The notes beneath the pieces are model-generated. The model was given only the letters and a program-made list of their open reading frames with translations. It was not told where the DNA came from and made no database searches. 33,074 nt of DNA from Verrucomicrobiota bacterium (GTDB lineage Bacteria; Verrucomicrobiota; Verrucomicrobiia; Limisphaerales; UBA1096), in NCBI GenBank assembly GCA_030747575.1, contig JASLKI010000311.1:1-33074 (forward strand). The letters are read 5' to 3'. A program made the translations under genes and the position numbers. Below, one piece after another: positions 1-19,303 of this stretch; within the stretch, counting starts at the first letter, position 1, and every line of letters starts with the position of its first letter.

Positions 1-1
1 T

Positions 2-475: not shown

Positions 476-484
476 TCCAACAAT

Positions 485-7166: not shown

Positions 7167-7526
7167 TAGTCTGGTGTCTATTAGAGAACTGCCGGGTAAA
7201 GCAGTGACATTGCTGTCAATCCATCGTGTACAGAGGAGAAACTCTGTGGATGTTGACTTGAAGTGACCAATTAATTCGCCTCCATGCTCCAATGCGGTCC
7301 GTAATAAATCCGTAATCGGCAGATACGAATTTATTCAAGGAGTTCGATTTTGAACCTCACCAACTCCACGCGCTCAATTCATGAACAATGGATTTGGATT
7401 TCGGGAATTTTCGGGCAAAAGAGGGCTAGTTGAATCTATAATCTTCTTTATTCAATGCGTTAAGAGTTGACATAAGTGTTTGATTAGAAAAAAATACTTT
7501 TTTAAGTAACTTATCCTTAAAAATAA

Positions 7527-8051
7527 ATGAAAAATATACTAATAATATTGCTAGCTATAACAGCATTTACCATTTCAGTAAATGCTCAGTCAGAAACACT
7601 TCCTGAAGTAAAGACAAGTGATGCCTTCAAACAATTGCAAGGCTTTATTGGTAAATGGAAAGGGAAAATAACAAAATATAATGGCGAAGTCGAGAGCATA
7701 GAGACTGAGTTTAGTTTAATGACTAATGGTAGTGTGATTGTAGAACGATTCACTGAAGGCGGCAAGGAGGTCTTTACAATGTATCATGATAAAAACGGTC
7801 AATTGACTGCTACCCACTATTGCTCACTAGGGAATGTTCCGTCGTTTACTCTAAGTAAAAAAGACAAGTATAATTTGTCATTCGCTTTCGATCCTCTTTG
7901 TGGATTAAAGGTTGGGAAAGACAAATTTCTAAACTCATTGGTTTGGAATTATGATCCTAAAAAACCAAATAAACTTCAGTCATATAGCAAGCTCATTGAT
8001 ACTGATAAAAGTATACTTTCGAACACTAAAAAGTTAACTAGAGTAAAGTAA
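7527..8051 (+). CDS. Secreted hypothetical protein in the AT-rich block
   Basis: 174-aa ORF with signal peptide MKNILIILLAITAFTISVNAQ, very AT-rich codon usage and no SD-like sequence upstream. An intrinsic terminator follows. Family not recognised with confidence (motif THYCSLGNVPSF). Confidence 0.75.
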   Translation: MKNILIILLAITAFTISVNAQSETLPEVKTSDAFKQLQGFIGKWKGKITKYNGEVESIETEFSLMTNGSVIVERFTEGGKEVFTMYHDKNGQLTATHYCSLGNVPSFTLSKKDKYNLSFAFDPLCGLKVGKDKFLNSLVWNYDPKKPNKLQSYSKLIDTDKSILSNTKKLTRVK

Positions 8052-8075
8052 AAATATTAGAAAATACCTTTTTCA

Positions 8076-8104
8076 AGCACCATTTACTAATGGTGCTTTT
8101 TTTT
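8076..8104 (+). terminator. Rho-independent terminator of the 7527..8051 gene
   Basis: Stem agcaccat (8076-8083) pairs with atggtgct (8090-8097). A run of seven T follows (8098-8104). Confidence 0.85.
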
Positions 8105-8110
8105 CATTAT

Positions 8111-9007
8111 ATGAATAAATTAATTATCTTTTGCATGCTGGTTACTATTAGCTGTAAAGAACATAAAACTAGCTATGAACACCCGAATAATTCTGCTACA
8201 AATAAATTAGAGTTTATTACAAAAGGTATAGTTAAAGAATTCTTAGATAACGGCATGATTAAAATTGAACATGAGGAGATCCCGAATTACATGCCATCGA
8301 TGACTATGCCATTTAATATAAAAAACAAGGCAGAAGCCGATGGAATTAAAATTGGAAATGAAATAAGTTTTAAATTTAATGTTGGAGAAGATTACAGCTG
8401 GATTGATGAAATAGTAATATTAAATACAGCTCCAGAAAATGAAAACAAAGAATACAGAACAGGCACAGTTAGCGAAAAAAGATATTTAACAATTGGGGAC
8501 GTGATTGGAAACTATGATTTTATCAATCATAAAAATGAAAAAGTAAGCCTGAGTCATTTCAATGATAAGGTTCTTGTTATCACGTTTATTTATACTCGAT
8601 GCCCTGTGCCTGACTTTTGCCCACAATTATCACTAAAATTTAAATCCGCACTTGAAAGTCTTAGCACAGAATTACCAAACCAAAATGCTTATCATTTCCT
8701 GTCTATTACCTTTGACCCTGAACACGATACGCCTAATGTACTAAACAATTATGCAAAACTTTATGAAGGCGACAATCACAATAACTGGAGTTTCCTAACT
8801 TCCAGTACGGAAGAAATACAAAAATTCACTGACGAAATTGGATTAGTAATAAGTCGTGAAAAAGAGAGTATATTAGACTGGGATCATAACCTTCGAACAC
8901 TAGTTACTAATCAATCAGGTATGATCAAAACTATTCTTATTGGAAACCTGTGGAGTGCCGATGAGTTGGTTAATGAAATAAAAGAATTACTGGCAGGCCA
9001 TAGATGA
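8111..9007 (+). CDS. SCO1/SenC-family copper chaperone / thiol-disulfide protein with an N-terminal CusF-like copper-binding domain; probable lipoprotein
   Basis: Thioredoxin-fold motif FIYTRCPVPDFCP, ..SITFDPEHDTP.., DHNLRTLV. N-terminal IEHEEIPNYMPSMTMPFNI Met-rich copper-site-like motif. Start moved to ATG 8111 (MNKLIIFCMLVTISC) because the listed start at 8090 lies inside the upstream terminator. Confidence 0.8.
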   Translation: MNKLIIFCMLVTISCKEHKTSYEHPNNSATNKLEFITKGIVKEFLDNGMIKIEHEEIPNYMPSMTMPFNIKNKAEADGIKIGNEISFKFNVGEDYSWIDEIVILNTAPENENKEYRTGTVSEKRYLTIGDVIGNYDFINHKNEKVSLSHFNDKVLVITFIYTRCPVPDFCPQLSLKFKSALESLSTELPNQNAYHFLSITFDPEHDTPNVLNNYAKLYEGDNHNNWSFLTSSTEEIQKFTDEIGLVISREKESILDWDHNLRTLVTNQSGMIKTILIGNLWSADELVNEIKELLAGHR

Positions 9008-9039
9008 ATGTTTGGATGCGGAAAGGGGGCTGGCAACAG

Positions 9040-9117
9040 CTACTTCCCTTCAGCTTTCAATTCTTCACCCGTCTTGCCGCCGTGTTTGCGGAGGAGGTCT
9101 TCGGTTTCTTTTCTCAT
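9040..9117 (-). pseudogene. Tail-only fragment (25 codons: MRKETEDLLRKHGGKTGEELKAEGK)
   Basis: Near-exact copy of the family tail element with stop TAG at 9040-9042. No leader or cargo is attached. It sits between the AT-rich plus-strand block and the minus-strand array. Confidence 0.6.
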
Positions 9118-9141
9118 AGGTCTGAGTTGGTCATAATATCG

Positions 9142-9489
9142 TCAATCCCACCACCAGTAGAGATAACCCTCGGGAGCAAGCTGCATCAGTCCGTAGCACA
9201 CTGGTAACGACACTAAATGCACCATGAAATAGACAACCAGATGTCGCCAGCGAGAGACAAGTAGACATACCAGAATAATTGCAGGCACTACAAAAATGGT
9301 AAAAAGCAACAAACACGTAATGTAAGCACCTTGAATTTGATCATGCATAAGCAACGCCGGAGGAAACCCATGCGTTCCAATACTCTCGGGCCACCCATCT
9401 AAACTTTTGTGCATGTGAATTGCTAAGGAGTAAAATAGTAATAGTGCCAACAAGTAAGGCAGGATTGAGATAGCAATACCTGCTTTCAT
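9142..9489 (-). CDS. Small integral membrane protein (hypothetical)
   Basis: 115-aa ORF with 3-4 hydrophobic helices. Its ATG overlaps the upstream stop as ATGA (9486-9489), directly after a tail element. Confidence 0.6.
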   Translation of the reverse strand: MKAGIAISILPYLLALLLFYSLAIHMHKSLDGWPESIGTHGFPPALLMHDQIQGAYITCLLLFTIFVVPAIILVCLLVSRWRHLVVYFMVHLVSLPVCYGLMQLAPEGYLYWWWD

Positions 9490-9935
9490 TTCCCTTCAGC
9501 TTTTAAGCCTTCTCCAAGAACTCGTAGATTCTTTTCCACCGCGCTGGTTTCACCCTTTCTTCTTTTAGCAATTATGCCATCAATACTCTGAACAGTTGAA
9601 TCCATATCTATAATTTCAGCACTATTACTGTTATCACCAAGAATTATTGCAAGATTGCTATTTAGATTTTGGGTGTAGTAACCAAATTCTTGTTTAACTA
9701 TTTTCCCATTTATATTTCCTTTGAATAAGCCGCCACCTTCTTGTTTTGATTTAAAACTAAATACTTTAAACACACCCCCATCTAGTCGATCAATTAGCAA
9801 TTGCTGTCCTACTACTGTTATTTCGATCTCCTGCCAAACATTTGTTCCGCTGTTTGCTATTGTTATTTTATTTTTTGAACACCCAAGCAGCACCGCGGTT
9901 GCGATTGTTGTGAGTAGGAGGTGTTTCATTTTCAT
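9486..9935 (-). CDS. Small lipoprotein (hypothetical) with family leader, AT-rich core and degenerate family tail
   Basis: N-terminus MK-MKHLLLTTIATAVLLGCS (lipobox); the second ATG at 9929 is the canonical leader start. C-terminus ..GEGLKAEGK-stop. Confidence 0.75.
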   Translation of the reverse strand: MKMKHLLLTTIATAVLLGCSKNKITIANSGTNVWQEIEITVVGQQLLIDRLDGGVFKVFSFKSKQEGGGLFKGNINGKIVKQEFGYYTQNLNSNLAIILGDNSNSAEIIDMDSTVQSIDGIIAKRRKGETSAVEKNLRVLGEGLKAEGK

Positions 9936-9993
9936 TCAACTTTCAATTCTTCACCCGTCTTGCCGCCGTGCTTGCGGAGGAGGTCGGCGATTT
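9884..9993 (-). repeat. Tail-leader junction element (tail of 9932..10489 plus leader of 9486..9935)
   Basis: Minus-strand sense ..ctcctccgcaagcacggcggcaagacgggtgaagaattgaaagttgaATGAaaATGaaacacctcctactcacaacaatcgca.. Confidence 0.9.
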
Positions 9994-10489
9994 CATTGAG
10001 TGAACGCGAAAGCGCTGGAGAAAAAGCATTCTGGAATTTAATTAAAGCATTCGCCGAATCTAGCGGTGTACCGAAAATATCATCCTTCGCATTCACATCC
10101 GCACCTTTGGTGATTAGCAGTTCAGCCATTTCGGGACGAGGGGGATCAATCGCCCACACTAGGGGTGTTTCCTTAGATGGTCCATTCACATTCACATCCG
10201 CACCTTCGGAGATTAGCAGTTCAGCGATTTCCTTATGGCCTTCTCGAACCGCCCAATGCAATGGAGTTCTTCTAGCTATATCCGTCATATTCACATCCCC
10301 GCCAGCATCCAAGTACTGTTTGACCAATTCAATATTTCCGTCAATGGCAGCGTCGTGAATTGAGATGTCTGGCACTTTGGCTGCCGGCGGTTCAGCTGGT
10401 TTCGCTTCTGGTTCAGGAGCCGACTGCTGCGTTTTACCACACCCCACCAGAAGCACGGCTGCGATTGTTGTGAGTAGGAGGTGTTTCAT
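9932..10489 (-). CDS. Ankyrin-repeat lipoprotein (canonical leader + tail family member)
   Basis: MKHLLLTTIAAVLLVGCGK, then ANK repeats (TPLHWAVREGHKEIAELLISEGADVN..), ending IADLLRKHGGKTGEELKVE-stop. ATGA overlap with the next gene at 9932-9935. Confidence 0.9.
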   Translation of the reverse strand: MKHLLLTTIAAVLLVGCGKTQQSAPEPEAKPAEPPAAKVPDISIHDAAIDGNIELVKQYLDAGGDVNMTDIARRTPLHWAVREGHKEIAELLISEGADVNVNGPSKETPLVWAIDPPRPEMAELLITKGADVNAKDDIFGTPLDSANALIKFQNAFSPALSRSLNEIADLLRKHGGKTGEELKVE

Positions 10490-10528
10490 TTCTCTTCAGC
10501 TTTCAATTCTTCACCCGCCTTGCCGCAA
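10441..10528 (-). repeat. Tail remnant (untranslated) fused to the leader of 9932..10489
   Basis: Minus-strand sense ttgcggcaaggcgggtgaagaattgaaagctgaagagaaATGAaacacctcctactc.. The remnant lies after the stop of the PQQ-like gene and lacks the LLRKH part. Confidence 0.85.
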
Positions 10529-10542
10529 GTCATCGAGTTCTA

Positions 10543-11835
10543 CTACTGCGCCTCGATGCGATACAAATGCCCGCCCGTGCGCATGATGAAAGCATCACCA
10601 TCGACGGCGGGCGTCGCCATGAACGGCTGCCTAGCCAGAGCATTACTGGCCATGACCTGAAGTTTGCGAGTTGGCCGAATGACTGTGGTAAGGCCTTCCT
10701 CGTTAAACAGGTAAATCCGCCCCTCTGCGTAGATGGGCGACGCCGAGTAAACGCCCTTCAGACGTTCCTTCCAGACGACCTCGCCGGTCTTAGCCTCAAG
10801 ACAGCTCGCGATACCGCCACGGTTCACGACAAACAACAAATCGCCTACCAGCAACGGAGAACAACGTTGTGGCATGCTGCGGAACGACTTCCATTCAATA
10901 TGCGTGTCGGTTACATCGCCTTTGCCGTTGAGCCGAATGGCCCACAGTTCCGGCCGGTCCCGATCCACCGTGGCAAACACCAACCCGTGGCCGGATACAG
11001 GGCGCGGTGCCACCGACCAGCCTCGATGCCGTACGTACCACAGTTCCTTGCCTGTTTTCGGATCGTAGGCGTAAAGACCGCGGCCAGCAGGGCTTACGAG
11101 TTGCTGGCCTTGACCTCTCGGCACCAGCGCCGGCATACAATAGGCCTTTCGGTGATGAACGGGAAACTTGGAATACTCGAGCGATCGCAGCGTTTTCCAA
11201 GCCGTCTTACCAGTGGTCTTGTCGAGAGCGATGATGTATTGCACATCCCGACCATCCACGTGAACCACCGCCTTGTCCCCGACGAGTGTTGGCGAACTAG
11301 CTGGCCCGGCTCCCGCCTCATGGTCGCAATTCAAATCACGTCGCTTCCACAACACATCTCCGGTTTCAGTGTCTAGGCAAGCCGTGCCATAAGTGCCGAA
11401 GTGCAGTATTACCCTACGTTCATCTATCACGGGCGTGGGAGTTGCGTAGGTGTTGTCTTTGGTGATCCTTATTGGTTTAGCCACATCGAACAAATGCAGA
11501 TCATAAACTATCTTGCCGGTTACCTTATCTAGACAGACCGCGAACAATTTCCGCCCGTCAGCTGTGGCAGTGGTAAGCCAAATTTGCCTCCCCCAAATCA
11601 CCGGGGATGACCAGCCCCGATCGTGGATAGGGGTTTTCCAAGTGACGTTTTCTGCCTCCGACCACTTCAACAGAAGATTAGTTGATGTCGTATGACCGTC
11701 ACCGCTTGGACCTCGAAATTGCCACCAATTGTGCTCAGCTGAAGCCAAACCAATCACAAGAAAAAAAAATGCAAAACAAACGATGGACTTGTCTTTAATA
11801 TGCGTTTTTTTAAGGAATTTAATCTCTTTTTTCAC
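10543..11835 (-). CDS. PQQ-like (BamB-like) beta-propeller repeat protein, secreted
   Basis: HNWWQFRGPSGDGH.., repeated ..P.V.....Y....DG.L.A.D..TGK..W propeller motifs. Own signal peptide KSIVCFAFFFLVIGLASA. Start set at GTG 11835; the listed start at 11886 runs into the orphan-leader region in another frame, so the start is uncertain. Confidence 0.8.
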   Translation of the reverse strand: MKKEIKFLKKTHIKDKSIVCFAFFFLVIGLASAEHNWWQFRGPSGDGHTTSTNLLLKWSEAENVTWKTPIHDRGWSSPVIWGRQIWLTTATADGRKLFAVCLDKVTGKIVYDLHLFDVAKPIRITKDNTYATPTPVIDERRVILHFGTYGTACLDTETGDVLWKRRDLNCDHEAGAGPASSPTLVGDKAVVHVDGRDVQYIIALDKTTGKTAWKTLRSLEYSKFPVHHRKAYCMPALVPRGQGQQLVSPAGRGLYAYDPKTGKELWYVRHRGWSVAPRPVSGHGLVFATVDRDRPELWAIRLNGKGDVTDTHIEWKSFRSMPQRCSPLLVGDLLFVVNRGGIASCLEAKTGEVVWKERLKGVYSASPIYAEGRIYLFNEEGLTTVIRPTRKLQVMASNALARQPFMATPAVDGDAFIMRTGGHLYRIEAQ

Positions 11836-11933
11836 TAAACTGCAACTTGATGAGTTGAGATGTCTGGCGACTGCGACTCTCCACACCCCGCCAGCACCAC
11901 GGCTGCGATTGTTGTGAGTAGGAGGTGTTTCAT
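11835..11933 (-). pseudogene. Orphan leader plus ankyrin N-terminal fragment (MKHLLLTTIAAVVLAGCGESQSPDISTHQVAV-stop)
   Basis: Exact 30-nt leader copy starting at ATG 11933. SPDISTHQ resembles the VPDISIHDAA start of the ankyrin protein at 9932..10489. It ends at TAG 11835-11837, which overlaps the GTG of the PQQ-like ORF (TAGTG). Confidence 0.6.
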
Positions 11934-12005
11934 TTCAATTCTGCTGTTAATTAGCGGTGCTGGCAGTGCCACCCAAGTGTGCCATGAGAAGATGGAAAAT
12001 AACGG

Positions 12006-12296
12006 CTAATACACTTGGCTTTGATAAAGAAACTCTGGAGGTGACTCAAGGAAGTCGGAGACAAACTCTTGGAGCAAGCCGCCTTCCTCTCTCCAAGCCA
12101 CATACTTTTTATGTGCTTCAATGGAAGCCCACTCTCCATAAACCATCATCGTGGAGTCATCTGGACTCCCCGCGACACGAATGGAATCACAACCTTCAAA
12201 GGAGGCAGTGTCAGGAATATGTTTTTGCATAAATGCTACAGCTTCCTCGTACTTACCCGGTTGAATCTTCATTTTTACAATAGCAATTTTAGACAT
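12006..12296 (-). CDS. Antibiotic-biosynthesis-monooxygenase (ABM) domain protein
   Basis: 96-aa ORF of typical ABM length, with the pattern ..FEGC....V......MMVYGEWASIEAHKKY.. Confidence 0.8.
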   Translation of the reverse strand: MSKIAIVKMKIQPGKYEEAVAFMQKHIPDTASFEGCDSIRVAGSPDDSTMMVYGEWASIEAHKKYVAWREEGGLLQEFVSDFLESPPEFLYQSQVY

Positions 12297-12318
12297 AAAG
12301 CGAGAACATCAGAGTTGC

Positions 12319-12405
12319 GCCTAACCGTCAAGCGGTCAGAAAAAAGAGTCGGTCTAACAGTTGCCTCCGAACAACAACCCTGTGGCGTTCAAGTGGTTGT
12401 TTAGC
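12319..12405 (-). repeat. Intergenic repeat, copy A (family A/B/C), with GTTAGAC and GTTAGGC motifs
   Basis: Plus-strand taacagttgcctccgaacaacaaccctgtggcgttcaagtggt aligns with 16157-16197 (taacggttgccgccgaac---aaccctacggcgttcaagcggt). Minus-strand sense reads GCTAAAC..(40 nt)..GTTAGAC, and a second GTTAGGC lies 27 nt downstream. Confidence 0.7.
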
Positions 12406-12503
12406 TGATGGGAGCTTTGACTACTCGATATGGTTCTATTACTGGTAATTCCAGCTCTTTTCCATCCCCAATTTTTACTATGGAAATAGAGTACGTTTTC
12501 GGT

Positions 12504-13949
12504 TTATCTCTGGACCGGAAGTCGCGTGTACGGGCTGGAAATATAGGTGTTATACGTGCGGCCTGATCGAACGATTCTTTTGCGGTGATTACTAAAAAAG
12601 TCTATATGCTTATGTCCCGGTTTAATGGCTAAAGTCACACTCCAGGAATTCTGCGCGGGGTTCATTTTCATTGGGGCGGCCTGTTCCTTCGGAAAAAGTT
12701 CAGCGATATATGCCGCACTACCATCAGGACCCCGGTCATACATCCACCATATGCGCCCACTCTCAGCCTTTGCCCCCTTGGGGAAAGTCACCGTAATCTG
12801 AATCTTATCCTTATCCAATTTGGCTTGTACCGCTGGAGGAGACAATAACCCTTCTCCCCCAAAAAAGTGATGGAGTAAGAATACCGATTTATTCTGTTCA
12901 TCGCGTTCAGCCGCTGGATGAGGTTCACGGATCCCATGACCTGAATTAGCTTTAAGGTAAATTGGAATTTGGGGGTAATGTTTCCCGCCCCATGCCAGAT
13001 CAAACGCCACAAAGTCATGGGTGCCCGGGTGAAAAAACAAATCGACACTCCGCTCCTTTAGAGTCTTCAGATGTCGAGAAACAAAAATGTGATCGGCCAT
13101 CTCTCCCGCAATCTTCTGCAAATCCTCCCACTTCTTCCCCGCAGCCAGAGCCTGGCGGTTATAGACCGGCCCAAAGGTGCCGCCCAAAAAGAAGTGATTC
13201 ATAATGCGCTCGGTGTTTACAGATTCACCGCGTGCCCTCAGTTTGACCGCATAAGTCTCATTCGCCCGGCGCAAATCTGACCACACCTTGGGATCACACA
13301 GGCGCAGGGGTGAATCCCAAATAGGGGACACACTCGCATGCAGGGCACTCAATCGCTTGTCTTCAATCAGGGTCACCGAAGGTGAGGCACCATTCTTAGA
13401 GCCGCCTGAGGCAGCGACCTTACCCTTTTCAAAATGATCCTTCTCTGCGTAAGCCGTCGTGATTGCTCGCATTAAGGTGGCCGGCCAGCCCCAGTACTGG
13501 ATGGAATAATGAGGATTGAGTGTCTCAACAAAACGCCGGTCGGCCAATCGACCCAGTTCACCCTGACCGGATACTTGCAATACCTGCACCACCGTTTGCA
13601 CCAGACCGACGCCTCCTTCAAGTAAGGTTCGATCCACCCCGCGAGGCTGCAAATCCTTTTGGAACTGGCCCGGATTGTGACCGCCAGTCAGGTGGAAACC
13701 CTTGGCCTTGCGGTTGGTCGGCACAACCATCCGCACCGGCACGCGGTATTCCTTTCCCGGCAGTAGCTCCCCCACCCGAATGGTGACCAATTTCTGTCGC
13801 GTGGACACTTCTCCCCTCACCACATGCCAGTCCTTGAGCACCTTCACCTCTAGGGTACTCGCGTCCAGCATTTCGGCCATATTAAAAAGGGGAGCTGACT
13901 GCAGAGGCAATAGCGCAACAAAAAAAACGATTAAGAACAGGTATTTCAT
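12504..13949 (-). CDS. Secreted hypothetical protein, possibly an alpha/beta-hydrolase-like PhoPQ-activated-pathogenicity-related family member
   Basis: 481-aa ORF with signal peptide MKYLFLIVFFVALLPLQSA. The block SGGSKNGASPSVTLIEDKRLSALHASVSPIWD resembles the GASKRGW..D.RV..i.P motif of that family, recalled from memory with low certainty. Its ATG is part of an ATGA directly after a tail remnant. Confidence 0.7.
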   Translation of the reverse strand: MKYLFLIVFFVALLPLQSAPLFNMAEMLDASTLEVKVLKDWHVVRGEVSTRQKLVTIRVGELLPGKEYRVPVRMVVPTNRKAKGFHLTGGHNPGQFQKDLQPRGVDRTLLEGGVGLVQTVVQVLQVSGQGELGRLADRRFVETLNPHYSIQYWGWPATLMRAITTAYAEKDHFEKGKVAASGGSKNGASPSVTLIEDKRLSALHASVSPIWDSPLRLCDPKVWSDLRRANETYAVKLRARGESVNTERIMNHFFLGGTFGPVYNRQALAAGKKWEDLQKIAGEMADHIFVSRHLKTLKERSVDLFFHPGTHDFVAFDLAWGGKHYPQIPIYLKANSGHGIREPHPAAERDEQNKSVFLLHHFFGGEGLLSPPAVQAKLDKDKIQITVTFPKGAKAESGRIWWMYDRGPDGSAAYIAELFPKEQAAPMKMNPAQNSWSVTLAIKPGHKHIDFFSNHRKRIVRSGRTYNTYISSPYTRLPVQR

Positions 13950-13976
13950 TTCCCTTCAGCTTTCAATTCTACACCC
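13946..13976 (-). repeat. 3' half of a tail element (untranslated)
   Basis: tcatttcccttcagctttcaattctacaccc has one mismatch to the canonical tail. It lies after the stop (13978-13980) of the ankyrin gene and supplies the ATGA start of the 12504..13949 gene. Confidence 0.9.
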
Positions 13977-13977
13977 A

Positions 13978-14847
13978 CTACTCAACCACCCTCACACGGT
14001 AGAACCATTGCGGGGGATCGTGATCTCTCTCTTCATCAAACCGAACCGAGGCGCCAGTCCCGGTGTAGGTCTTGATCACTTCCCAGTTTAGCAGATCAAG
14101 TGAATCCTGAACCTCGTAGACCTTTCCCTCCTTCGCATCAAAGCTGAATGCAAAGCGATTGTGCTGTATCAAGCGAGGCGTCAGTTGATGTTTGCGGAGG
14201 AGGTCGGCGATTTGCCTCTTTGCGACTTTGGCATCAGGCGAGTCCCATTCATATACCAATTCGGCAGTATCTAGCGGAGTTCGTCCAAAACCATCTTTTA
14301 CATTCACATTCGCACCATTCGCGATTAGCAGTTCAACGATTTCCTCGTGGCCTATACCAGCCGCCACATGCAATGGAGTCCCGTAATATCCACTCTCAGT
14401 ATTTAAATCCGCGCCTTTGATTATAAGCAATTCGACGATTTCCTTGTGACCTTCAAGGGCTGCATCATGCAAACTGGACTTGCCTGTAGAATCCTTTGAA
14501 TTCACATCGCTGCCATTTGAAATAAGTAGTTCGACGATTTCCCTGTGACCTTGCCTGGCTGCCGAATGTAAAGGCGTCCACCCTCCACCTCCCAACATGG
14601 TAACAGTCCTTGCATGCAAATCCGCACCTGCGGCAATCAACAACTCGACGATTTCCCCGTGACCTCCTTCAGCCGCACCATGCAAAGGAGTCGATCCACC
14701 TTCACTCTTCGCGTTCACATCCACGCCTCTGTCCAATTCCGCTTGGACGCCAGCAATGTCACCGCTCTTAGCAGCATAGTGAATCGGGTCGGCGAAGGCA
14801 GTTCTCACCAGCACTACGGCTGCGATTGTTGTGAGTAGTAGTTTCAT
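13978..14847 (-). CDS. Ankyrin-repeat protein with family leader and an extra C-terminal ~70-aa beta-rich module ending WFYRVRVVE
   Basis: Start moved to ATG 14847 (MKLLLTTIAAVVLV, a leader variant). Five to six ANK repeats (TPLHGAAEGGHGEIVELLIAAGADL..). IADLLRKH is followed by QLTPRLIQ..FYRVRVVE instead of GGKTGEELKAEGK. Confidence 0.85.
   Translation of the reverse strand: MKLLLTTIAAVVLVRTAFADPIHYAAKSGDIAGVQAELDRGVDVNAKSEGGSTPLHGAAEGGHGEIVELLIAAGADLHARTVTMLGGGGWTPLHSAARQGHREIVELLISNGSDVNSKDSTGKSSLHDAALEGHKEIVELLIIKGADLNTESGYYGTPLHVAAGIGHEEIVELLIANGANVNVKDGFGRTPLDTAELVYEWDSPDAKVAKRQIADLLRKHQLTPRLIQHNRFAFSFDAKEGKVYEVQDSLDLLNWEVIKTYTGTGASVRFDEERDHDPPQWFYRVRVVE
14192..14213 (-). repeat. 5' half of the same split tail element
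   Basis: ttgcggaggaggtcggcgattt is identical to 9972-9993. Confidence 0.85.
14806..14847 (-). repeat. Leader element copy (variant)
   Basis: Minus-strand sense atgaaactactactcacaacaatcgcagccgtagtgctggtg. Confidence 0.85.
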
Positions 14848-14905
14848 AGTCCTGACGTGCGTTAAATAAAATGGGGACCCTGAACCGGTATCGGCGGATT
14901 TAACT

Positions 14906-15097
14906 TTACCAACCAAAAACTGTGCCGACGATGATATAGACGGTTGATACTATAAAAATAATCGTCACGCACACCAGCATCACAGGTGCCTTCCGAGGTT
15001 TATAGCCTTCATTGACTGCTCCACATTTCGGACATTTTTCTAAATTAGTAGATACACCTCCACCGCAATCCTTACATTCTAAGATTAGTGTTTTCAT
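14906..15097 (-). CDS. Small zinc-ribbon protein with a C-terminal TM helix (hypothetical)
   Basis: CKDCGG..(9 aa)..CPKCG two-CxxC zinc ribbon, then the hydrophobic stretch VMLVCVTIIFIVSTVYIIVGTVF. AT-rich. Its ATG is part of an ATGA after an untranslated tail copy. Confidence 0.6.
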   Translation of the reverse strand: MKTLILECKDCGGGVSTNLEKCPKCGAVNEGYKPRKAPVMLVCVTIIFIVSTVYIIVGTVFGW

Positions 15098-15157
15098 CTC
15101 CCTTCAACTTTCAATTCTTCACCCGTCTTGCCGCCGTGTTTGCGGAGGAGGTTGGCG
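15094..15157 (-). repeat. Complete tail element, untranslated (out of frame and downstream of the esterase stop)
   Basis: Would read ANLLRKHGGKTGEELKVEGR-stop. The esterase stop (15158-15160) precedes it, and the frame offset (15158-15094=64) is not a multiple of 3. Confidence 0.9.
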
Positions 15158-16111
15158 CTACTTTTTCAAGTGGTGTATCAGGAAAGCCACATCGTCTTCG
15201 AACGGCAGTTGAGCTTGTGGAAATTTGAGGAATACATTCACGCCTTCCCGTCGCAGTTTCTTTTCCATGAAGATGCCAAAATTGACGTGGTGAATAGACC
15301 AGCCCCGGGCACGTTTGGGATCGCTGGGGATCGGATCGTCCGGATTCATGCCATAGCTCATGAAGGTGGGCGGGTCATCCGGGGTGATGTGATTGATGAC
15401 GGAGATTTCGTTGAGAAGGGCCCGCCGTTCGACAAAGGACAGGTCTTCCCTGCCCCCTTTACCGTGGAACTCTCTTTTGTAGCCCGGGATATTCTCGACC
15501 CACCAATTCATGTCCAGGGTCGATTGTCCGCCCCTGAGGGCCACCGCTTTGAGACGCGATGATTCCCGTGAGACCGGATCGGTGCTTTTCGGATTCGCAA
15601 AATCATTGCCCCAGGCGAGGTAGGCAACAAGCTGGGCGCCCGCCGATCCTCCATAGGCGGCAATGCAGTTTTTATCGATGCCCCAATCCTCCGCCTTGCT
15701 GCGGATGAACTGCAAGGCGCGAACGCAGTCTTCATGCGCAGCCGGAAAATCGGCATGCTTAAGAAAGCGGTACTCTACAGACGCATGGTGAATGCCGGCA
15801 TCGAGATATTGCCGGATTGCCTTGCCATTGACTTTGTCGTGCGAGCCTCCCTTGAAGCCGCCTCCGTGAATATAGACTATCAGGGGAGCTGGATCATCCA
15901 CGTTAGCCTTCCGGAAATCGATCACTTGGTTGGGGTGATCGCCGTAGGAAACATTTTCGTATGTAATCGACGGAGAGGGGGGCTTTTGCTGCGCTTGAAC
16001 AGTGAGGCCAGAGGTGTCTGCGATCAAAAATGCGGAGGAAAATAAAAGCGTTGAATAGAGGTGTTTTATTTGGAAGTCGGCAGCGATTGTTGTGAGTAGC
16101 ACTGATTTCAT
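15158..16111 (-). CDS. Alpha/beta-hydrolase esterase (HGGG-type carboxylesterase/lipase-like), secreted
   Basis: Oxyanion motif YIHGGGFKGG and nucleophile elbow GGSAGA (GxSxG). The N-terminus is a leader-derived MKSVLLTTIAA fused upstream of a second signal-like segment IKHLYSTLLFSSAFLIA. Confidence 0.85.
   Translation of the reverse strand: MKSVLLTTIAADFQIKHLYSTLLFSSAFLIADTSGLTVQAQQKPPSPSITYENVSYGDHPNQVIDFRKANVDDPAPLIVYIHGGGFKGGSHDKVNGKAIRQYLDAGIHHASVEYRFLKHADFPAAHEDCVRALQFIRSKAEDWGIDKNCIAAYGGSAGAQLVAYLAWGNDFANPKSTDPVSRESSRLKAVALRGGQSTLDMNWWVENIPGYKREFHGKGGREDLSFVERRALLNEISVINHITPDDPPTFMSYGMNPDDPIPSDPKRARGWSIHHVNFGIFMEKKLRREGVNVFLKFPQAQLPFEDDVAFLIHHLKK
16079..16111 (-). repeat. Leader element copy (variant)
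   Basis: Minus-strand sense atgaaatcagtgctactcacaacaatcgctgcc. Confidence 0.8.
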
Positions 16112-16142
16112 AGCGAGGGAACCGTCACCCCGATAAACTCTG

Positions 16143-16213
16143 TTTTCAAGGCGTTTTAACGGTTGCCGCCGAACAACCCTACGGCGTTCAAGCGGTGGAG
16201 TGGGTTGGTCTAG
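16143..16213 (-). repeat. Intergenic repeat, copy B (full length)
   Basis: Plus-strand ttttcaaggcgttttaacggttgccgccgaacaaccctacggcgttcaagcggtggagtgggttggtcta. Contains an imperfect hairpin, minus-strand sense CCGC-TT-GAAC..GTTC-G-GCGG. Confidence 0.8.
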
Positions 16214-16227
16214 TTGTCTTTCGAAGC

Positions 16228-16533
16228 CTAAGCGTCTTCCAGAATTTTCAGGGAGACGTCTTCTACCATGCCTTCTACCTTCGATTTGTACTCTAACATA
16301 TGCGGCGCAGTGAAATGAGCTTCAAGGTGAAGTAATGATTCCCATTTCTCAATAACCGTTACGACGTTTGCATTCGTTTCCTGGATGGGAATGTCGGTTT
16401 GGAAGTCCACCGTGGCGGAATATTCGATACACCCCTCTTCCTCCAGCACCTTGGGAACGTTCGTCTTGAATATTTCAATGAAGGCGTCGCGTTCGGAAGC
16501 TTCTACTGAAATGGATGCTATTACGTTTATCAT
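16228..16533 (-). CDS. Antibiotic-biosynthesis-monooxygenase (ABM) domain protein
   Basis: 101-aa ORF, ..EEGCIEY....D......VVTVIEKWESLLHLEAHFTAPHM... Strong AGGAGG lies 5 nt upstream of the ATG. Confidence 0.85.
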   Translation of the reverse strand: MINVIASISVEASERDAFIEIFKTNVPKVLEEEGCIEYSATVDFQTDIPIQETNANVVTVIEKWESLLHLEAHFTAPHMLEYKSKVEGMVEDVSLKILEDA

Positions 16534-16538
16534 TTTTA

Positions 16539-16544
16539 CCTCCT
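16539..16544 (-). promoter_or_regulatory. Shine-Dalgarno sequence of the ABM gene
   Basis: Plus-strand cctcct equals AGGAGG, 5 nt upstream of ATG 16533. Confidence 0.6.
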
Positions 16545-16584
16545 AAGCCTGTAAGAGAGTGAACACTCGCGGTCGAGTTGCCAT

Positions 16585-16626
16585 TTTTCAAGGCGTTTTA
16601 ACTGTTGCCGCCGAGGTGGGTTGGCT
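16585..16626 (-). repeat. Intergenic repeat, copy C (copy B with an internal ~27-nt deletion)
   Basis: ttttcaaggcgttttaactgttgccgccga has 1 mismatch over 30 nt to copy B. It then continues ggtgggttggcta, matching the distal end of copy B. Confidence 0.8.
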
Positions 16627-16662
16627 ACTTCCCTTCAGCTTTCAATTCTTCACCCGTCTTGC
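16625..16662 (-). repeat. Tail element copy (3' part only, translated in frame with the sulfatase)
   Basis: ctacttcccttcagctttcaattcttcacccgtcttgc is identical to 9040-9077. Confidence 0.9.
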
Positions 16663-18040
16663 GCGCTGCGCGTTTGCCACGTTTTCTCGGCGGCTCATTA
16701 ATCCACCATTCTGATGGCCCTTCTTTTTCAACCTCATCGTGTACCTTCAATAGCGCGGTTTTCATGAAGGCAAGCTTTTCGGGCATCTTGGACGCCAAAT
16801 CCTTTTCCTCCTTCCAATCCTCCTCGATCTTATAGAGCTGAAATTTCTCGAGGGCCCTATCCCCCACAATCTTCCACTCGCCAATACGCAGAGCCACGTG
16901 ATTGTCTGCCGGCGCCAAGTGGTTACGCCAGTAAAGCGGCACAGTCCGTTCCACCGGTTTACCGGCCAAAGCCGGCCGCATGTCCACCCCGTCAATCACC
17001 CGATCCTTGGGCAGGTCCGCACCAACAATGGCCAGTATGGTGGAGAAAAGGTCGGACCCAATCACCGGCACACTGCTCGTGGTCCCAGGCTTAATGTGGT
17101 TGGGCCAACGGGCAATACCCGGCACGCGAATACCTCCTTCATGACTCCAGCGCTTTCGTCCACGCAGGCCTCCAGTCGAACCGCGTGTACGGCCTTTGGT
17201 CCCCGCCCCCTCAGGTCCGTTATCCGAGGTAAAAAAGACGAAGGTATCCTCGGTCAAGCTCTGTTGATCGAGTTCTTTCATTAGCAAACCAAAGGCATGG
17301 TCCAACTGGGTGACATTCCCGTGGTGCTGCCGGATTCCCTCATCATCAATATCCGCGTAAGGCTTCATGAACTCAGGCGCCGACTCAATAGGTAGATGCG
17401 GTTCATGCGTCCAGACAGTGATAAAGAAAGGTTTGGACTTGTCCCTTTCCTTGCGGAGCCAGTTAATGGCTTCTTCAGCGGCAATGACTGCAGAAGCGCC
17501 TTTGATAACTCCAACGGCCTTGCCATTGCGTACGAAGTTTTTCGGATTAATATGATTGGGCGAAGCATTGTTTTGGGTTGCCAACCACCAGTCATAGCCG
17601 TGGCTATTGGGTTGGGGTTGACGCGGATCATTAAAGAACCCGTTCAGGTGCCACTTGCCGGCATGGCATGTCGTGTAGCCCTTTGATTTCAAGACCTCGG
17701 GAATGGTAATCTCACTGGTACGCAGGTGCACCTGGTGGCCCGAAGGAATCCAACGCCACACCCCGTTGCGGTAGGGGGTACGGCCTGTGAGAATGGAGGA
17801 ACGCGAAGGCGAACAAACCCCGCACGCCGCGTAACACTGGGTAAGCCGCACGCCTTCTTTTGCGAACTGGTCCAGGTTCGGCGTTTTAATCAAGGGATGT
17901 TCCTGAACACCCAAATCGCCCCAACCGAGGTCGTCGGTGAGAAAGATCACAAAATTAGGCGACTTCTCCTTGGCATTCAATTCAAGCGCAAACCCCACCA
18001 GCACCACGGCTGCGATTGTTGTTAGTAGGAGGTGTTTCAT
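16625..18040 (-). CDS. Arylsulfatase (formylglycine-dependent S1 sulfatase family) carrying family leader and short family tail
   Basis: FLTDDLGWGDLG and the CGVCSPSRSSILTGR (CxPxR) signature. N-terminus MKHLLLTTIAAVVLVG. C-terminus ..RKTGEELKAEGK-stop. Confidence 0.9.
   Translation of the reverse strand: MKHLLLTTIAAVVLVGFALELNAKEKSPNFVIFLTDDLGWGDLGVQEHPLIKTPNLDQFAKEGVRLTQCYAACGVCSPSRSSILTGRTPYRNGVWRWIPSGHQVHLRTSEITIPEVLKSKGYTTCHAGKWHLNGFFNDPRQPQPNSHGYDWWLATQNNASPNHINPKNFVRNGKAVGVIKGASAVIAAEEAINWLRKERDKSKPFFITVWTHEPHLPIESAPEFMKPYADIDDEGIRQHHGNVTQLDHAFGLLMKELDQQSLTEDTFVFFTSDNGPEGAGTKGRTRGSTGGLRGRKRWSHEGGIRVPGIARWPNHIKPGTTSSVPVIGSDLFSTILAIVGADLPKDRVIDGVDMRPALAGKPVERTVPLYWRNHLAPADNHVALRIGEWKIVGDRALEKFQLYKIEEDWKEEKDLASKMPEKLAFMKTALLKVHDEVEKEGPSEWWINEPPRKRGKRAARKTGEELKAEGK
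17993..18040 (-). repeat. Leader element copy
   Basis: Minus-strand sense atgaaacacctcctactaacaacaatcgcagccgtggtgctggtgggg, with one change relative to the 30-nt core. Confidence 0.9.
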
Positions 18041-18166
18041 GTCAGCGAAAGCTCAGCTTAATTGCGTATTATTTGCAATAGTTTTGAATGTGCATATGAA
18101 AATCTTCATGCAATACAAAAAAGGGCAGCATGCTCACGCTTAGTGGTCAAGCACCGTTGATTTGCG

Positions 18167-18194
18167 TTGACGATTTATTCAAAGTTGCTATGAA
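18167..18194 (+). promoter_or_regulatory. Possible sigma70-like promoter for the 18210..19118 gene
   Basis: TTGACG (18167-18172), a 16-nt spacer, then TATGAA (18189-18194). The ATG follows at 18210. Pattern match only. Confidence 0.3.
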
Positions 18195-18209
18195 CTTGTT
18201 CGGGTTTTT

Positions 18210-19118: not shown

Positions 19119-19165
19119 GCAAGGCTGCTGTTAAACGCGCCGAAATTAAGATCATTGTAGCGCAT

Positions 19166-19303
19166 TCATTTCCCTTCAGCTTTCAATTCTTCACTAGTCT
19201 TGGCTCCGTGTTTGCGGAGGAGGTTGGCGGTTGCCAATACAGCCAACGGCGCGCGGTGGTCTTGATAAGTAGCATAATCCAGCCGGGTTTCGCCAACATT
19301 GCC
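19166..19303 (-). pseudogene. Ankyrin C-terminal fragment with a tail element
   Basis: ..GETRLDYATYQDHRAPLAVLATANLLRKHGAKTSEELKAEGK-stop parallels the last ANK repeat plus tail of 9932..10489. The N-terminal part of the listed 72-aa ORF overlaps a terminator hairpin and is probably not coding. Confidence 0.6.

What the first reader, a model, noticed from the sequence alone, without database searches (positions are those of the whole stretch)
7290..9007. Extremely AT-rich plus-strand block with a copper-chaperone gene, embedded in high-GC DNA at the edge of the array
By hand count, line 7501-7560 is 17% GC and line 8221-8280 is 28% GC, against 68% for line 20161-20220. The block holds two plus-strand genes: a secreted hypothetical protein and a CusF-like + SCO1/SenC fusion. 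Their signal peptides (MKNILIILLAITAFTISVNAQ; MNKLIIFCMLVTISC), lack of SD sequences and textbook intrinsic terminator are more typical of Bacteroidota-like genomes (inference). High-GC DNA flanks the block on both sides, and a tail-only fragment (9040-9117) follows directly. The adjacent minus-strand cargo (9142-9935) is also AT-rich. This suggests recent cross-phylum acquisition into the array.
Basis: partly seen in the sequence, partly recalled or inferred. Interest (0 to 1): 0.65.

Follow-up and report, generated by a model that had tools for sequence, protein, structure and literature searches.

The report
Mobile AT-rich copper-chaperone gene cassette
The AT-rich block is real: it is a self-expressed two-gene copper-handling cassette that marine Verrucomicrobiota shuffle between many genome sites, not a recent import from another phylum and not an assembly error.

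Summary
The block carries its own promoter. It encodes a secreted 174-aa beta-barrel protein of an unnamed family (p174), a conserved hairpin with a T-run, and a CusF+SCO1/SenC lipoprotein (start 8111).

The flanking core gene RsmI and the block both have their nearest named relatives in Verrucomicrobiota. The next relatives are Akkermansiaceae-like, then Planctomycetota, where the same gene pair sits at native GC. No Bacteroidota appear among the close hits. Most host genes in the window also lack Shine-Dalgarno sequences.

The block is not a chimera. An independent contig matches window 1-9095 at 99.3%, metagenome depth is even across the block, and the block is an AT-rich island in every related genome examined.

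It is a discrete unit of about 1.7 kb. It occurs at 73-99% nucleotide identity in at least 13 left-flank contexts, and an inverted 'tail' motif of the cassette array follows it in every copy whose right end is on the contig. Some copies lie next to tRNA genes or an integrase. Metatranscriptomes cover it.

Most likely it is a cassette of the lineage's flexible gene pool, moved by recombination at the array's repeats. Why it is AT-rich is unresolved.

The parts
7351..7437 (+). Upstream leader of the cassette. The left homology boundary of the longer cassette form starts at 'CCAACTCCACGCGCTCAATTCAT...', which in other genomes is preceded by a G-run.
   Evidence: The alignment of 7 contexts loses homology sharply to the left of this point. 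The short cassette form starts at 7438 instead.
7438..7526 (+). Conserved promoter region: -35 TTGACA at 7467-7472, 17-nt spacer, -10 AAAAAT at 7490-7495. There is no SD before the ATG.
   Evidence: The promoter scan scores 10 of 12. The -35 and its upstream sequence are invariant in all aligned copies. Metatranscriptome contigs give no cover at 7396-7469 and start from about 7489-7536.
7527..8051 (+). p174: a secreted 174-aa protein of an unannotated family, predicted to be a 10-stranded nitrobindin/calycin-like beta-barrel. Invariant W44, IVER71-74, T96-H97-Y98-C99, G102-N103.
   Evidence: No significant Pfam match (best E = 0.0058, below its cut-off) and no NCBIfam or PDB sequence match. 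AF2 model has pLDDT 78.8 and pTM 0.72. Foldseek gives TM 0.57-0.65 to OlmO and nitrobindin. The family has 2782 50%-identity representatives at E<=1e-3.
8075..8105 (+). Intergenic hairpin (AAGCACCAT-loop-ATGGTGCTT) followed by T8. It is probably a leaky terminator or attenuator that sets p174 above Sco in abundance.
   Evidence: Terminator scan. The hairpin and T-run are conserved in L001, L002, L110, L112 and in the 52-64%-identity L006/L114 family. RNA contig depth is about 20 over p174 and about 4 over the Sco gene in X25 and X27, with contigs spanning the hairpin.
8111..9007 (+). Lipoprotein with an N-terminal CusF-like Cu(I) domain and a C-terminal SCO1/SenC thioredoxin-fold domain (298 aa).
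   Evidence: Pfam CusF_Ec 47.5 bits and SCO1-SenC 63.5 bits. Invariant across 12 homologues: Cys15 (lipobox), H54-E-E, M61, M64, M66, T-R-C164-P-x-P-x-F-C170-P, H259. PDB Sco proteins match at 1.5e-10 and weaker.
9040..9117 (-). Inverted 'tail' motif (...EDLLRKHGGKTGEELKAEGK*) abutting the cassette's 3' end. It is the right-hand boundary of the conserved unit. It is in frame with ORF 9142-9489 but separated from it by a TGA.
   Evidence: Repeat families D3-D5. The translation shows the in-frame TGA. Homology with every cassette copy whose right end is on its contig runs to about 9095-9112 and then stops.
9142..9489 (-). Neighbouring cassette: a 115-aa membrane protein (44% GC) with no head motif. 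It is absent from the related strain L108.
   Evidence: ORF list. No Pfam or NCBIfam match. L108 joins the cassette directly to window 9488.
9486..9935 (-). Neighbouring AT-rich cassette (36% GC): a 149-aa lipoprotein carrying the array head (MKMKHLLLTTIA...) and a degenerate tail (...GLKAEGK*).
   Evidence: It is present next to the cassette in L108 at 93% identity.
9040..19230 (-). Head/tail cassette array whose left edge the block occupies. It holds 6 heads and 6 tails. Cargo includes Ank proteins, a PQQ-propeller protein, an esterase, an ABM-domain protein, a sulfatase and a plus-strand SGL-like gene.
19869..19955 (-). tRNA-Leu(CAG) bounding the far side of the array. A truncated copy of this tRNA (its 3' 76 nt) lies about 150 nt left of the cassette in other genomes.
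   Evidence: ARAGORN. L095, L100 and L107 carry the truncated copy.

Best explanation
The block is a discrete cassette of about 1.7 kb with its own promoter. It belongs to the flexible gene pool of a clade of marine Verrucomicrobiota.

Content. The cassette encodes a periplasmic copper-handling pair. One member is p174, a secreted nitrobindin-like beta-barrel with an invariant His-Tyr-Cys site. The other is a lipoprotein that fuses a CusF-like Cu(I)-binding domain to a Sco-type thiol/copper chaperone domain. A conserved leaky terminator between the genes probably keeps p174 in excess over the lipoprotein (inferred).

Origin. The gene pair is old within the PVC superphylum. In Planctomycetota it is adjacent and has native GC. 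In an Akkermansiaceae-like lineage it has a fixed left flank and 43-46% GC. In the window's clade it has become a mobile, strongly AT-rich unit.

Mobility. The unit occupies slots of head/tail cassette arrays, with an inverted tail motif following its 3' end in every copy that reaches that far. It has been placed in many different contexts. The most likely mechanism is homologous recombination at the array's conserved head and tail repeats. In some genomes tRNA-linked integrative islets may also be involved.

What is shown: composition, gene content, conservation, multiple contexts, transcription.

What is inferred: copper function, the recombination mechanism, and the reason for the low GC. 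The low GC most likely reflects long residence in a shared mobile or low-GC gene pool.
For: Composition.

Domains and conserved metal ligands. The ligand definitions for CusF and Sco are taken from PMC7558416.

p174 fold.

Host lineage: RsmI hits Verrucomicrobiota at 86-98%.

Cassette relatives, in order of distance:
- 87-97% in marine contigs.
- 70%/67% in the Verrucomicrobiota MAG GCA_030749105.1.
- 52-64% in Akkermansiaceae-like contigs.
- 43-46% next to a CusF-SCO gene in Rubripirellula and Planctomycetaceae, at native GC.

Island status elsewhere: the unit is an AT-rich island (29-38% GC) in backgrounds of about 55% GC in L001 and L002. The second family (L091/L092) is the same in backgrounds of about 60%.

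Mobility:
- 27 loci carry the unit at 73-99% nt identity, in 13 left and 10 right flank clusters. Six left contexts were replicated in independent assemblies.
- L091 and L092 share 2037 bp at 98.9% identity between unrelated flanks, and the shared stretch starts exactly at a tail motif.
- L108 shows cassette insertions and deletions bounded by tails and heads.
- tRNA-His (L002) and a truncated tRNA-Leu (L095, L100, L107) lie within about 150-210 nt of the left boundary. In L001 an integrase lies about 1.5 kb to the right, next to tRNA-Leu.

Not a chimera:
- L094 is 99.3% identical to window 1-9095.
- Depth is 10.3 in the flank and 8.1 in the block.
- Contigs span 7171-7491 and 8513-9070.
- Unitigs tile exactly across 8960-9260 at equal depth in X3 and X6.

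Expression: metatranscriptome contigs cover the cassette, and one 1548-nt contig covers both genes.
Against: - No compositionally matching donor was found, so the cause of the 33% GC is unexplained.
- The window holds no recombinase. The recombination mechanism rests on comparison only.
- Many contexts come from short metagenomic contigs. Junctions that cross the roughly 60-70-nt head or tail repeats could be assembler artefacts.
- Within the window's own species-level population the position is stable (window, L094, L108), so shuffling is not frequent.
- The Sco motif is Cx5C rather than the canonical CxxxC, and the CusF Trp is replaced by Tyr. Copper binding is therefore not guaranteed.
- Contig depth is a poor proxy for RNA level.
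Confidence: 0.72

Rival explanations
1. One reading: the block was recently acquired from another phylum, from a Bacteroidota-like low-GC donor, into this genome's array.
For: GC is 33% and GC3 is 27-30%. The proteins are rich in K, N and I. Neither gene has an SD. A few Bacteroidota and Ignavibacteria carry p174 homologues at 29-31% identity.
Against: None of the named proteins among the 120 best Sco hits, the 45 p174 hits and the clusters looked up is from Bacteroidota; the named ones are Verrucomicrobiota, Limisphaerales and Akkermansiaceae. The best species-representative hits are Planctomycetota, which carry the same gene pair. Host genes lack SD as well. The junction is shared by independent samples, and the cassette has diversified within the clade.
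Confidence: 0.04
2. Assembly or binning chimera: a low-GC organism's contig was joined to a high-GC contig through the repeated tail motif.
For: The tail motif is a very abundant repeat, with depth 10^3-10^4 against 8-20 for the genome. No single short contig crosses its 31-mer core. Raw-read runs were too shallow to test read pairs.
Against: The left junction contains no repeat. It is reproduced in L094 (99.3% over 9.1 kb), in L108 and in an X4 contig covering 7171-7491. Depth is equal on both sides of the tail in X3 and X6, with exact tiling. The same AT-rich island sits in high-GC DNA in at least three other assemblies.
Confidence: 0.03
3. The vehicle is a small integrase-dependent genomic islet that targets tRNA genes. 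The cassette is its terminal cargo, and the head/tail repeats are bystanders.
For: In L001 a tyrosine integrase lies next to tRNA-Leu(CAA), 1.5 kb from the cassette. tRNA-His lies about 210 nt from the left end in L002. A truncated tRNA-Leu (3' 76 nt, as in an att duplication) lies about 150 nt from the left end in L095, L100 and L107, with tandem AAAAAAAGGCAC repeats between them. L092 has an integrase and a resolvase about 1-4 kb to the left of the shared segment. The window's array ends at a tRNA-Leu.
Against: There is no integrase in the window or in most loci. No att-like direct repeat was found in L001. Many copies sit between a head and a tail with no tRNA nearby. This rival does not exclude the main explanation.
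Confidence: 0.2
4. The pair is a vertically inherited native gene pair. Its low GC is maintained in place by selection, for example for expression or regulation, and it has no special mobility.
For: The position is stable within the window's population (window, L094, L108). The L006 family has a fixed left flank and GC about 10 points below its surroundings. Cassette divergence across relatives (70-97%) is comparable with that of RsmI (86-98%).
Against: There are 13 distinct left contexts, six of them replicated. L091 and L092 carry a near-identical 2-kb segment in unrelated flanks. The orientation relative to the array differs between the two cassette families. No known selective force drives GC3 to 27% in a genome of about 55% GC.
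Confidence: 0.08

Closest known systems
Sco (SCO1/SenC) with PCuAC: periplasmic copper chaperone systems for CuA assembly in cytochrome oxidase
   Same: The C-terminal domain has the thioredoxin-fold Sco architecture, with a Cys pair and a distal His. The protein is membrane-tethered and faces the periplasm. It is encoded next to a small secreted beta-rich partner, as Sco is with PCuAC (PMC7558416, PMC6669012).
   Different: The Cys pair is C-x5-C, not CxxxC. The tether is a lipobox Cys rather than a TM helix. An extra CusF-like domain is fused at the N-terminus. The partner is not PCuAC (DUF461) but an unannotated nitrobindin-like barrel. No oxidase genes lie nearby.
CusF, the periplasmic Cu(I)/Ag(I) chaperone of the CusCFBA efflux system
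   Same: The Pfam CusF_Ec match is above the cut-off. The His plus Met-x2-Met-x-Met ligand pattern is invariant.
   Different: Tyr replaces the Cu-capping Trp. The domain is fused to Sco. No cusCBA genes are present. NCBIfam CusF scores 35.9 bits, far below its 143-bit cut-off.
Integron gene-cassette arrays
   Same: Variable cargo genes lie in a row separated by a short conserved repeat. Cassettes are present or absent between strains. The newest-looking cargo sits at one edge of the array.
   Different: There is no IntI integrase and no attC-type hairpin (junction folding z is about 0). The repeats are coding sequence: a lipoprotein signal peptide and a C-terminal tail. This cassette carries its own promoter and terminator, and it lies antisense to the array.
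tRNA-linked genomic islands and flexible genomic islands of marine bacteria
   Same: Low-GC accessory DNA. tRNA genes and sometimes a tyrosine integrase lie at the borders (L001, L002, L095/L100/L107). Content differs between strains.
   Different: The window has no integrase. The unit that moves is only about 1.7 kb and is bounded by an array repeat rather than by att sites.
Nitrobindin/calycin 10-stranded beta-barrels (nitrobindin, THAP4 C-terminal domain, Rv2717c, OlmO/OssO)
   Same: The predicted p174 fold matches them with TM 0.54-0.65 and probability 1.0.
   Different: Sequence identity is 9-19%, and there is no sequence-level match. p174 is secreted and has an invariant THYC motif. Its ligand is unknown.

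Membership tests
SCO1/SenC family (PF02630) | Domain model matched above the curated cut-off | tested here: met
   63.5 bits against a 22.8 cut-off, residues 132-269. PDB Sco proteins match from 1.5e-10 downward.
SCO1/SenC family (PF02630) | CxxxC copper-binding motif (PMC7558416) | tested here: not met
   The motif is T-R-C164-P-V-P-D-F-C170-P, that is C-x5-C. It is invariant in 12 homologues. HMMER needs a 2-residue gap to align it with T. thermophilus Sco 'TRCP--DVCP'.
SCO1/SenC family (PF02630) | Conserved distal His ligand | tested here: met
   H259 in 'DWDHNLRT' is invariant and aligns with the DH of 2k6v.
SCO1/SenC family (PF02630) | Binds Cu(I)/Cu(II) and matures a cuproenzyme | not testable with these tools
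   This needs metal-binding assays and genetics.
CusF (PF11604) | Domain model above the cut-off, with a one-His and two-Met metal site | tested here: met
   47.5 bits against a 27 cut-off. H54, M61, M64 and M66 are invariant.
CusF (PF11604) | Trp capping the metal (cation-pi), and a cusCFBA operon context | tested here: not met
   Position 60 is Tyr and is nearly invariant. There are no RND, MFP or OMF genes in the window. NCBIfam CusF scores 35.9 against a 143 cut-off.
Integron gene cassette | IntI tyrosine recombinase with attI next to the array | tested here: not met
   No Phage_integrase hit among the window proteins scanned. tblastn with the L001 and L092 integrases finds nothing in the window.
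Integron gene cassette | attC: an imperfect inverted repeat that folds as a single-strand hairpin at each cassette end | tested here: not met
   Five junctions or tails folded as ssDNA (one of them on both strands, six folds in all) give z-scores of -0.32 to +1.18 against shuffles.
tRNA-linked integrative island | Integrase next to a tRNA gene, with a direct repeat of the tRNA 3' end at the far border | tested here: inconclusive
   Window: tRNA-Leu at 19869-19955 but no integrase and no repeat. L001: integrase plus tRNA-Leu but no repeat found. L095, L100 and L107: a truncated tRNA-Leu beside the cassette.
Insertion sequence, transposon or MITE | Terminal inverted repeats, target-site duplication, transposase | tested here: not met
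   No terminal inverted or direct repeats bracket the unit in the window, L095 or L107. No transposase domain was found.
Nitrobindin-like beta-barrel (p174) | 10-stranded barrel fold | tested here: met
   AF2 pLDDT 78.8 and pTM 0.72, with ten strands. Foldseek gives TM 0.57-0.65 and E = 9e-6 to 3e-4.
Nitrobindin-like beta-barrel (p174) | Haem bound through a proximal His inside the barrel | not tested
   H97 is invariant, but its position in the model was not inspected and no ligand prediction was possible.
Cross-phylum transfer from Bacteroidota | Nearest homologues in the donor phylum, not in the host lineage | tested here: not met
   Every named close hit is from Verrucomicrobiota, and the best species-representative hits are Planctomycetota. 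Bacteroidota appear only at 29-31% identity for p174.

The most novel reading that the evidence does not exclude
The array's 'head' (lipoprotein signal-peptide coding sequence) and 'tail' (...LLRKHGGKTGEELKAEGK* coding sequence) may act as portable recombination sites of an undescribed cassette-exchange system that needs no integrase. The system would be shared across marine Verrucomicrobiota. The AT-rich copper module would be one of its free-standing cassettes, usable in either orientation. It would keep a composition unlike any host because it circulates through a common cassette pool. Its unannotated partner protein p174 would be a new kind of periplasmic metallochaperone that works with Sco.
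Probability: 0.3. Interest if true: 0.75.

Novelty: new variant of a known kind. Interest (0 to 1): 0.5.

Why it matters
First, it is a clear caution for transfer calls based on composition. A block 22 GC points below its flanks turns out to be lineage-internal and long established, not a fresh import from another phylum.

Second, it identifies a conserved, transcribed gene pair found so far in Verrucomicrobiota and Planctomycetota: a CusF-Sco fusion and an unannotated beta-barrel family with about 2800 50%-identity representatives. This pair is a testable candidate for periplasmic copper supply in abundant marine polysaccharide degraders.

Third, the block is a convenient marker for following how the head/tail cassette arrays of marine Verrucomicrobiota gain, lose and reorder cargo. 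It is single-copy, easy to recognise and present in many contexts. Short-read assembly and binning break this part of their genomes.

Tried and rejected
- Raw-read runs X21-X23 were laid on 6900-9500 to test read pairs. The organism is at only 0-2x there, so nothing could be decided.
- The first AF2 run on a 10-sequence alignment gave pLDDT 40 and was discarded. A 43-sequence alignment was needed.
- A profile of p174 against PDB sequences found nothing, and Pfam and NCBIfam gave no significant match.
- The GTDB species-representative scan found no copy of the cassette closer than 45% identity. The window's clade is therefore not represented there with this cassette.
- Phage records, plasmids (only distant Sco at 28-33% identity) and IMG/VR contigs, searched for p174 and for the tail DNA motif, gave no sign of a phage or plasmid vehicle.
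- The attC-like hairpin idea for the junctions was rejected.
- The terminal-repeat or transposon idea was rejected.
- An att repeat of tRNA-Leu was not found in L001.
- A literature search for the tail peptide, and one for Verrucomicrobiota ankyrin cassette arrays, found nothing relevant.
- A weak resemblance of window 7290-7340 to a degenerate head motif was considered and dropped, because neither the amino-acid nor the DNA similarity is convincing.
Full report
1. Observation

The low-GC block is real and strongly atypical.
- Window 7351-9040 is 33.3% GC. Other 1690-nt windows outside 7200-10000 average 54.5% (sd 3.6), giving z = -5.9.
- The dinucleotide signature is also outside the range of random core chunks: delta* is 139, against a maximum of 92.
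- GC3 of the two genes is 27-30%, against about 58% in neighbouring genes.

The block holds two plus-strand genes.
- 7527-8051 encodes a 174-aa protein with a signal peptide (p174).
- The second gene encodes a CusF_Ec + SCO1-SenC fusion. Its real start is ATG 8111, because the upstream in-frame ATG at 8090 lies inside a hairpin.

- The 'textbook terminator' (8075-8098 plus T8) lies between the genes.
- On the right, the higher-GC sequence is only the roughly 80-nt tail motif. After it comes more AT-rich cargo (9142-9935, 40% GC).
- The 'tail-only' fragment is in frame with the 115-aa ORF 9142-9489, separated by one TGA.

2. Host lineage and nearest relatives

Pfam content of the window fits a Planctomycetes-Verrucomicrobia-type genome: FG-GAP/ASPIC, sulfatase, an N_methyl protein and AddAB. 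The housekeeping gene RsmI (31630-32349) has its named hits in Verrucomicrobiota MAGs at 86-98% and in Verrucomicrobiales at 77-78%.

The block's proteins have their closest relatives in the same lineage.
- p174 is 87-97% identical to proteins on marine contigs, and 70% identical to a protein of a Verrucomicrobiota MAG.
- The Sco fusion is 95% identical to marine proteins and 67% identical to an 'SCO family protein [Verrucomicrobiota bacterium]'. It is then 52% identical to Akkermansiaceae proteins.
- All named hits at about 40% are Verrucomicrobia or Limisphaerales.
- In GTDB species representatives the best p174 hits are Rubripirellula and Planctomycetaceae (41-45%). There the gene sits next to a CusF-SCO fusion gene, and both have the GC of their genome.
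- Bacteroidota appear only at 29-31%.

The supposed Bacteroidota-like signals are not diagnostic either. 16 of 21 other genes in the window have no SD-like motif at -5 to -15, and the K/N/I-rich signal peptides follow from the AT content.

3. Not an assembly artefact

- L094, a contig from a different metagenome record, is 99.3% identical to window 1-9095. It covers the 1125-aa gene, the GC transition and the whole block into the tail.
- L108 shares the same left junction at 95% identity.
- In seawater metagenomes the contig depth is 10.3 in the flank and 8.1 in the block (X1), and 8.75 against 7.7 (X3). An X4 contig spans 7171-7491 and an X3 contig spans 8513-9070.
- Across the tail, unitigs tile the window exactly (8960-9068/9070, 9071-9146/9186, 9117/9157-9260). 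Depths are equal on both sides: 20.3, 20.4 and 21.4 in X6, and 8.1, 9.7 and 8.9 in X3.
- Only the roughly 31-nt core of the tail, which is a massive repeat, cannot be bridged by these contigs.
- Raw-read runs were too shallow to use.
- The same two genes form an AT-rich island of 29-38% GC in DNA of about 55% GC in L001 (GCA_902589265.1) and in L002/L003 (two MAGs).

4. Anatomy of the unit

Alignment of the window with L001 and L002, alignment of seven left junctions, and blastn of 27 loci define a conserved unit. Its parts, in order:
- Left end, in one of two forms. The long form starts at 7351, after a G-run in other genomes. The short form starts at 7438.
- An invariant upstream sequence with -35 TTGACA (7467) and a -10 at 7490.
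- The p174 gene.
- The hairpin and T-run. This is conserved even in the 52-64%-identity L006/L114 family.
- The Sco fusion gene.
- 33 nt of spacer.
- An inverted copy of the array's tail motif, up to about 9099-9112. Homology ends there in every copy whose right end is on its contig.

No terminal inverted or direct repeats bracket the unit.

5. Mobility

The unit occurs at 73-99% nt identity in 13 clusters of left flank and 10 clusters of right flank. Six left contexts are seen in two or more independent assemblies. The left neighbours are:
- the head and leader of another cassette (L001, L096-L099, L101, L103, L105);
- a truncated tRNA-Leu equal to the 3' 76 nt of the window's own tRNA-Leu at 19869-19955 (L095, L100, L107);
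- an intact tRNA-His (L002);
- a head/tail junction (L122);
- the 1125-aa gene (window, L094, L108).

In L001 a tyrosine integrase and tRNA-Leu(CAA) lie 1.5 kb to the right.

A second, more distant family of the same pair (177 aa + 317 aa; 47% and about 41% identity) behaves in the same way. L091 and L092 share 2037 bp at 98.9% identity between unrelated flanks. The shared segment begins exactly at the tail of two different ankyrin genes. It is 35-38% GC in genomes whose core is above 60%. In this family the unit is co-oriented with the array, and L092 carries an integrase and a resolvase nearby.

L108 differs from the window by the absence of 9000-9487 and of 9949-11882. Both gaps are bounded by tail or head motifs.

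Junctions show no excess secondary structure, so an integron-type attC mechanism is unlikely. Homologous recombination between the repeated coding motifs is the simplest reading. Site-specific integration next to tRNAs may contribute in some genomes.

Within the window's own population the position is stable. The shuffling is therefore old relative to strain divergence, and 'recent acquisition' is not supported.

6. Function

The fusion protein has these invariant features:
- a lipobox Cys15;
- the CusF-type ligands H54, M61, M64 and M66;
- a Sco-type Cys pair and distal His (C164, C170, H259).

These correspond to the one-His, two-Met site of CusF and the Cys-Cys-His site of Sco described in PMC7558416. 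There are two deviations: C-x5-C instead of CxxxC, and Tyr in place of the capping Trp.

p174 has no significant Pfam match and no NCBIfam or PDB sequence match. It belongs to a family with 2782 50%-identity representatives at E<=1e-3. With a 43-sequence alignment it is predicted at pLDDT 78.8 as a 10-stranded barrel, after a signal peptide and a short helix. The closest solved folds are nitrobindin and the OlmO/OssO barrels (TM 0.57-0.65). Its invariant T-H-Y-C motif suggests a metal or cofactor site (inference).

Among the loci fetched, the p174-Sco adjacency is seen only in Verrucomicrobiota and Planctomycetota. By analogy with Sco and PCuAC (PMC6669012, PMC7558416), the pair most likely captures and hands over periplasmic copper to a cuproenzyme. 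This is inference.

Metatranscriptome contigs cover the cassette.
- There is no cover at 7396-7469.
- Depth is about 20 over p174 and about 4 over the Sco gene in two runs.
- Contigs cross the hairpin, and one 1548-nt contig spans both genes.

This fits the predicted promoter and a leaky terminator. The usual caveats about contig depth apply.

7. The low GC

Across the families there is a gradient.

| Family | GC of the pair | GC of the surroundings | Context |
|---|---|---|---|
| Planctomycetota | 47-55% | 52-53% | GC equal to the genome |
| L006 family | 43-46% | about 53% | fixed left flank |
| L091 family | 35-38% | core above 60% | mobile |
| Window family | 33-36% | about 55% | mobile, at least 13 left contexts |

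Neighbouring cargo is also low in GC: the 149-aa gene is 36%, the L001 island 37-44% and the L091 array 36-43%. The more mobile the unit, the lower its GC. This fits long residence in a shared mobile pool, or passage through low-GC relatives. No compositionally matching donor was found, and this step remains unexplained. No phage, plasmid or viral-contig vehicle was detected.

8. Verdict

- The cross-phylum, Bacteroidota-like and recent-acquisition interpretation is not supported.
- The idea that the block is mobile DNA sitting in the array is supported.
- What is there is a new variant of a known kind: a small accessory cassette that expresses itself. It carries a copper-chaperone pair, one member of which belongs to an unannotated family. 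It is embedded in, and apparently moved by, an unusual array of coding repeats.
- Interest is moderate for the block itself. The array system and the p174-Sco partnership are the parts worth following.

Noticed in passing
window 9040-19230 (minus strand): Array of cassettes. Each starts with a near-identical lipoprotein signal-peptide 'head' (MKHLLLTTIAAVLLVGCG; heads ending at 9929, 10489, 11933, 14850, 16111, 18040). Each ends with a near-identical 'tail' (...LLRKHGGKTGEELKAEGK*; 9047-9087, 9933-9973, 10493-10533, 15101-15141, 16624-16662, 19173-19213). The motifs are attached to unrelated cargo: Ank, sulfatase, esterase and unknown proteins. DNA identity of the motifs is up to 100%, far beyond what the protein would require.
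   Followed up: partly
window 9047-9095: The core k-mers of the tail motif reach contig depths of 10^3-10^4 in seawater metagenomes, where this genome is at 8-20x. Many different sequences continue beyond position 9099. The motif is therefore a very abundant repeat in marine communities. It is also frequent in metatranscriptomes.
   Followed up: partly
window 10493-11933: The PQQ/beta-propeller gene (10543-11886) has its own signal peptide. It sits between an unused head (11899-11933) and an unused tail remnant (10493-10533, 'MTCGKAGEELKAEEK*'). This looks like a free-standing gene that replaced the body of a cassette.
   Followed up: partly
window 9040-9489: The 115-aa membrane-protein ORF is in frame with the downstream tail, interrupted by a single TGA at 9142-9144. 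Metagenome unitigs in two runs carry the same sequence exactly.
   Followed up: partly
L108 compared with window 7228-12783: A related strain (93-97% identity) lacks window 9000-9487 and 9949-11882. Both differences are bounded by tail or head motifs, so cassette gain and loss happen at the repeats.
   Followed up: partly
window 19869-19955 and 19772-19797; L095 2048-2129, L100 2546-2724, L107 230-306: tRNA-Leu(CAG) bounds the far edge of the array. A copy lacking the 5' 11 nt lies about 150 nt left of the cassette in three other contigs. It is followed by tandem 'AAAAAAAGGCAC' repeats, which also occur beside the intact tRNA in the window. They could be att or arm-type sites.
   Followed up: partly
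window 3789-7166: A secreted 1125-aa protein made of five repeats of about 203 aa (DNA repeats spaced 606-645 nt). No significant Pfam match, and it carries a distinct C-terminal segment.
   Followed up: no
window 18210-19118: A second plus-strand cargo gene (SGL/arylesterase-like, weak Pfam hits). Like the copper cassette, it lies antisense to the array with its 3' end facing a tail motif (19173-19213).
   Followed up: no
window about 19400-19633 (minus strand): A small ORF read by eye: an N-terminal hydrophobic segment followed by Cys-rich 'ECSxSKEEC'-type repeats, with a strong hairpin terminator at 19337-19365. It could be a metal-binding peptide.
   Followed up: no
L011 5168-10531; L013 100-4072: In two Rubripirellula MAGs the CusF-SCO + p174 pair directly follows a protein with an FGE-sulfatase (formylglycine-generating-enzyme-like) domain. 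Aerobic FGE is copper-dependent (own knowledge). Copper supply for sulfatase maturation is therefore a speculative client for this pair in sulfatase-rich PVC bacteria.
   Followed up: no
whole window, gene starts: Most genes of the host, at any GC, lack a Shine-Dalgarno-like motif at -5 to -15. SD-independent initiation seems to be the rule in this genome.
   Followed up: partly
L001 8500-14385: A low-GC island (29-44% GC) in a 112-kb contig. It holds Ank cassettes, the copper cassette, a 72-aa ORF and a tyrosine integrase, and it ends at tRNA-Leu(CAA) and tRNA-Lys. The accession series suggests a single-cell genome, but this was not verified.
   Followed up: partly
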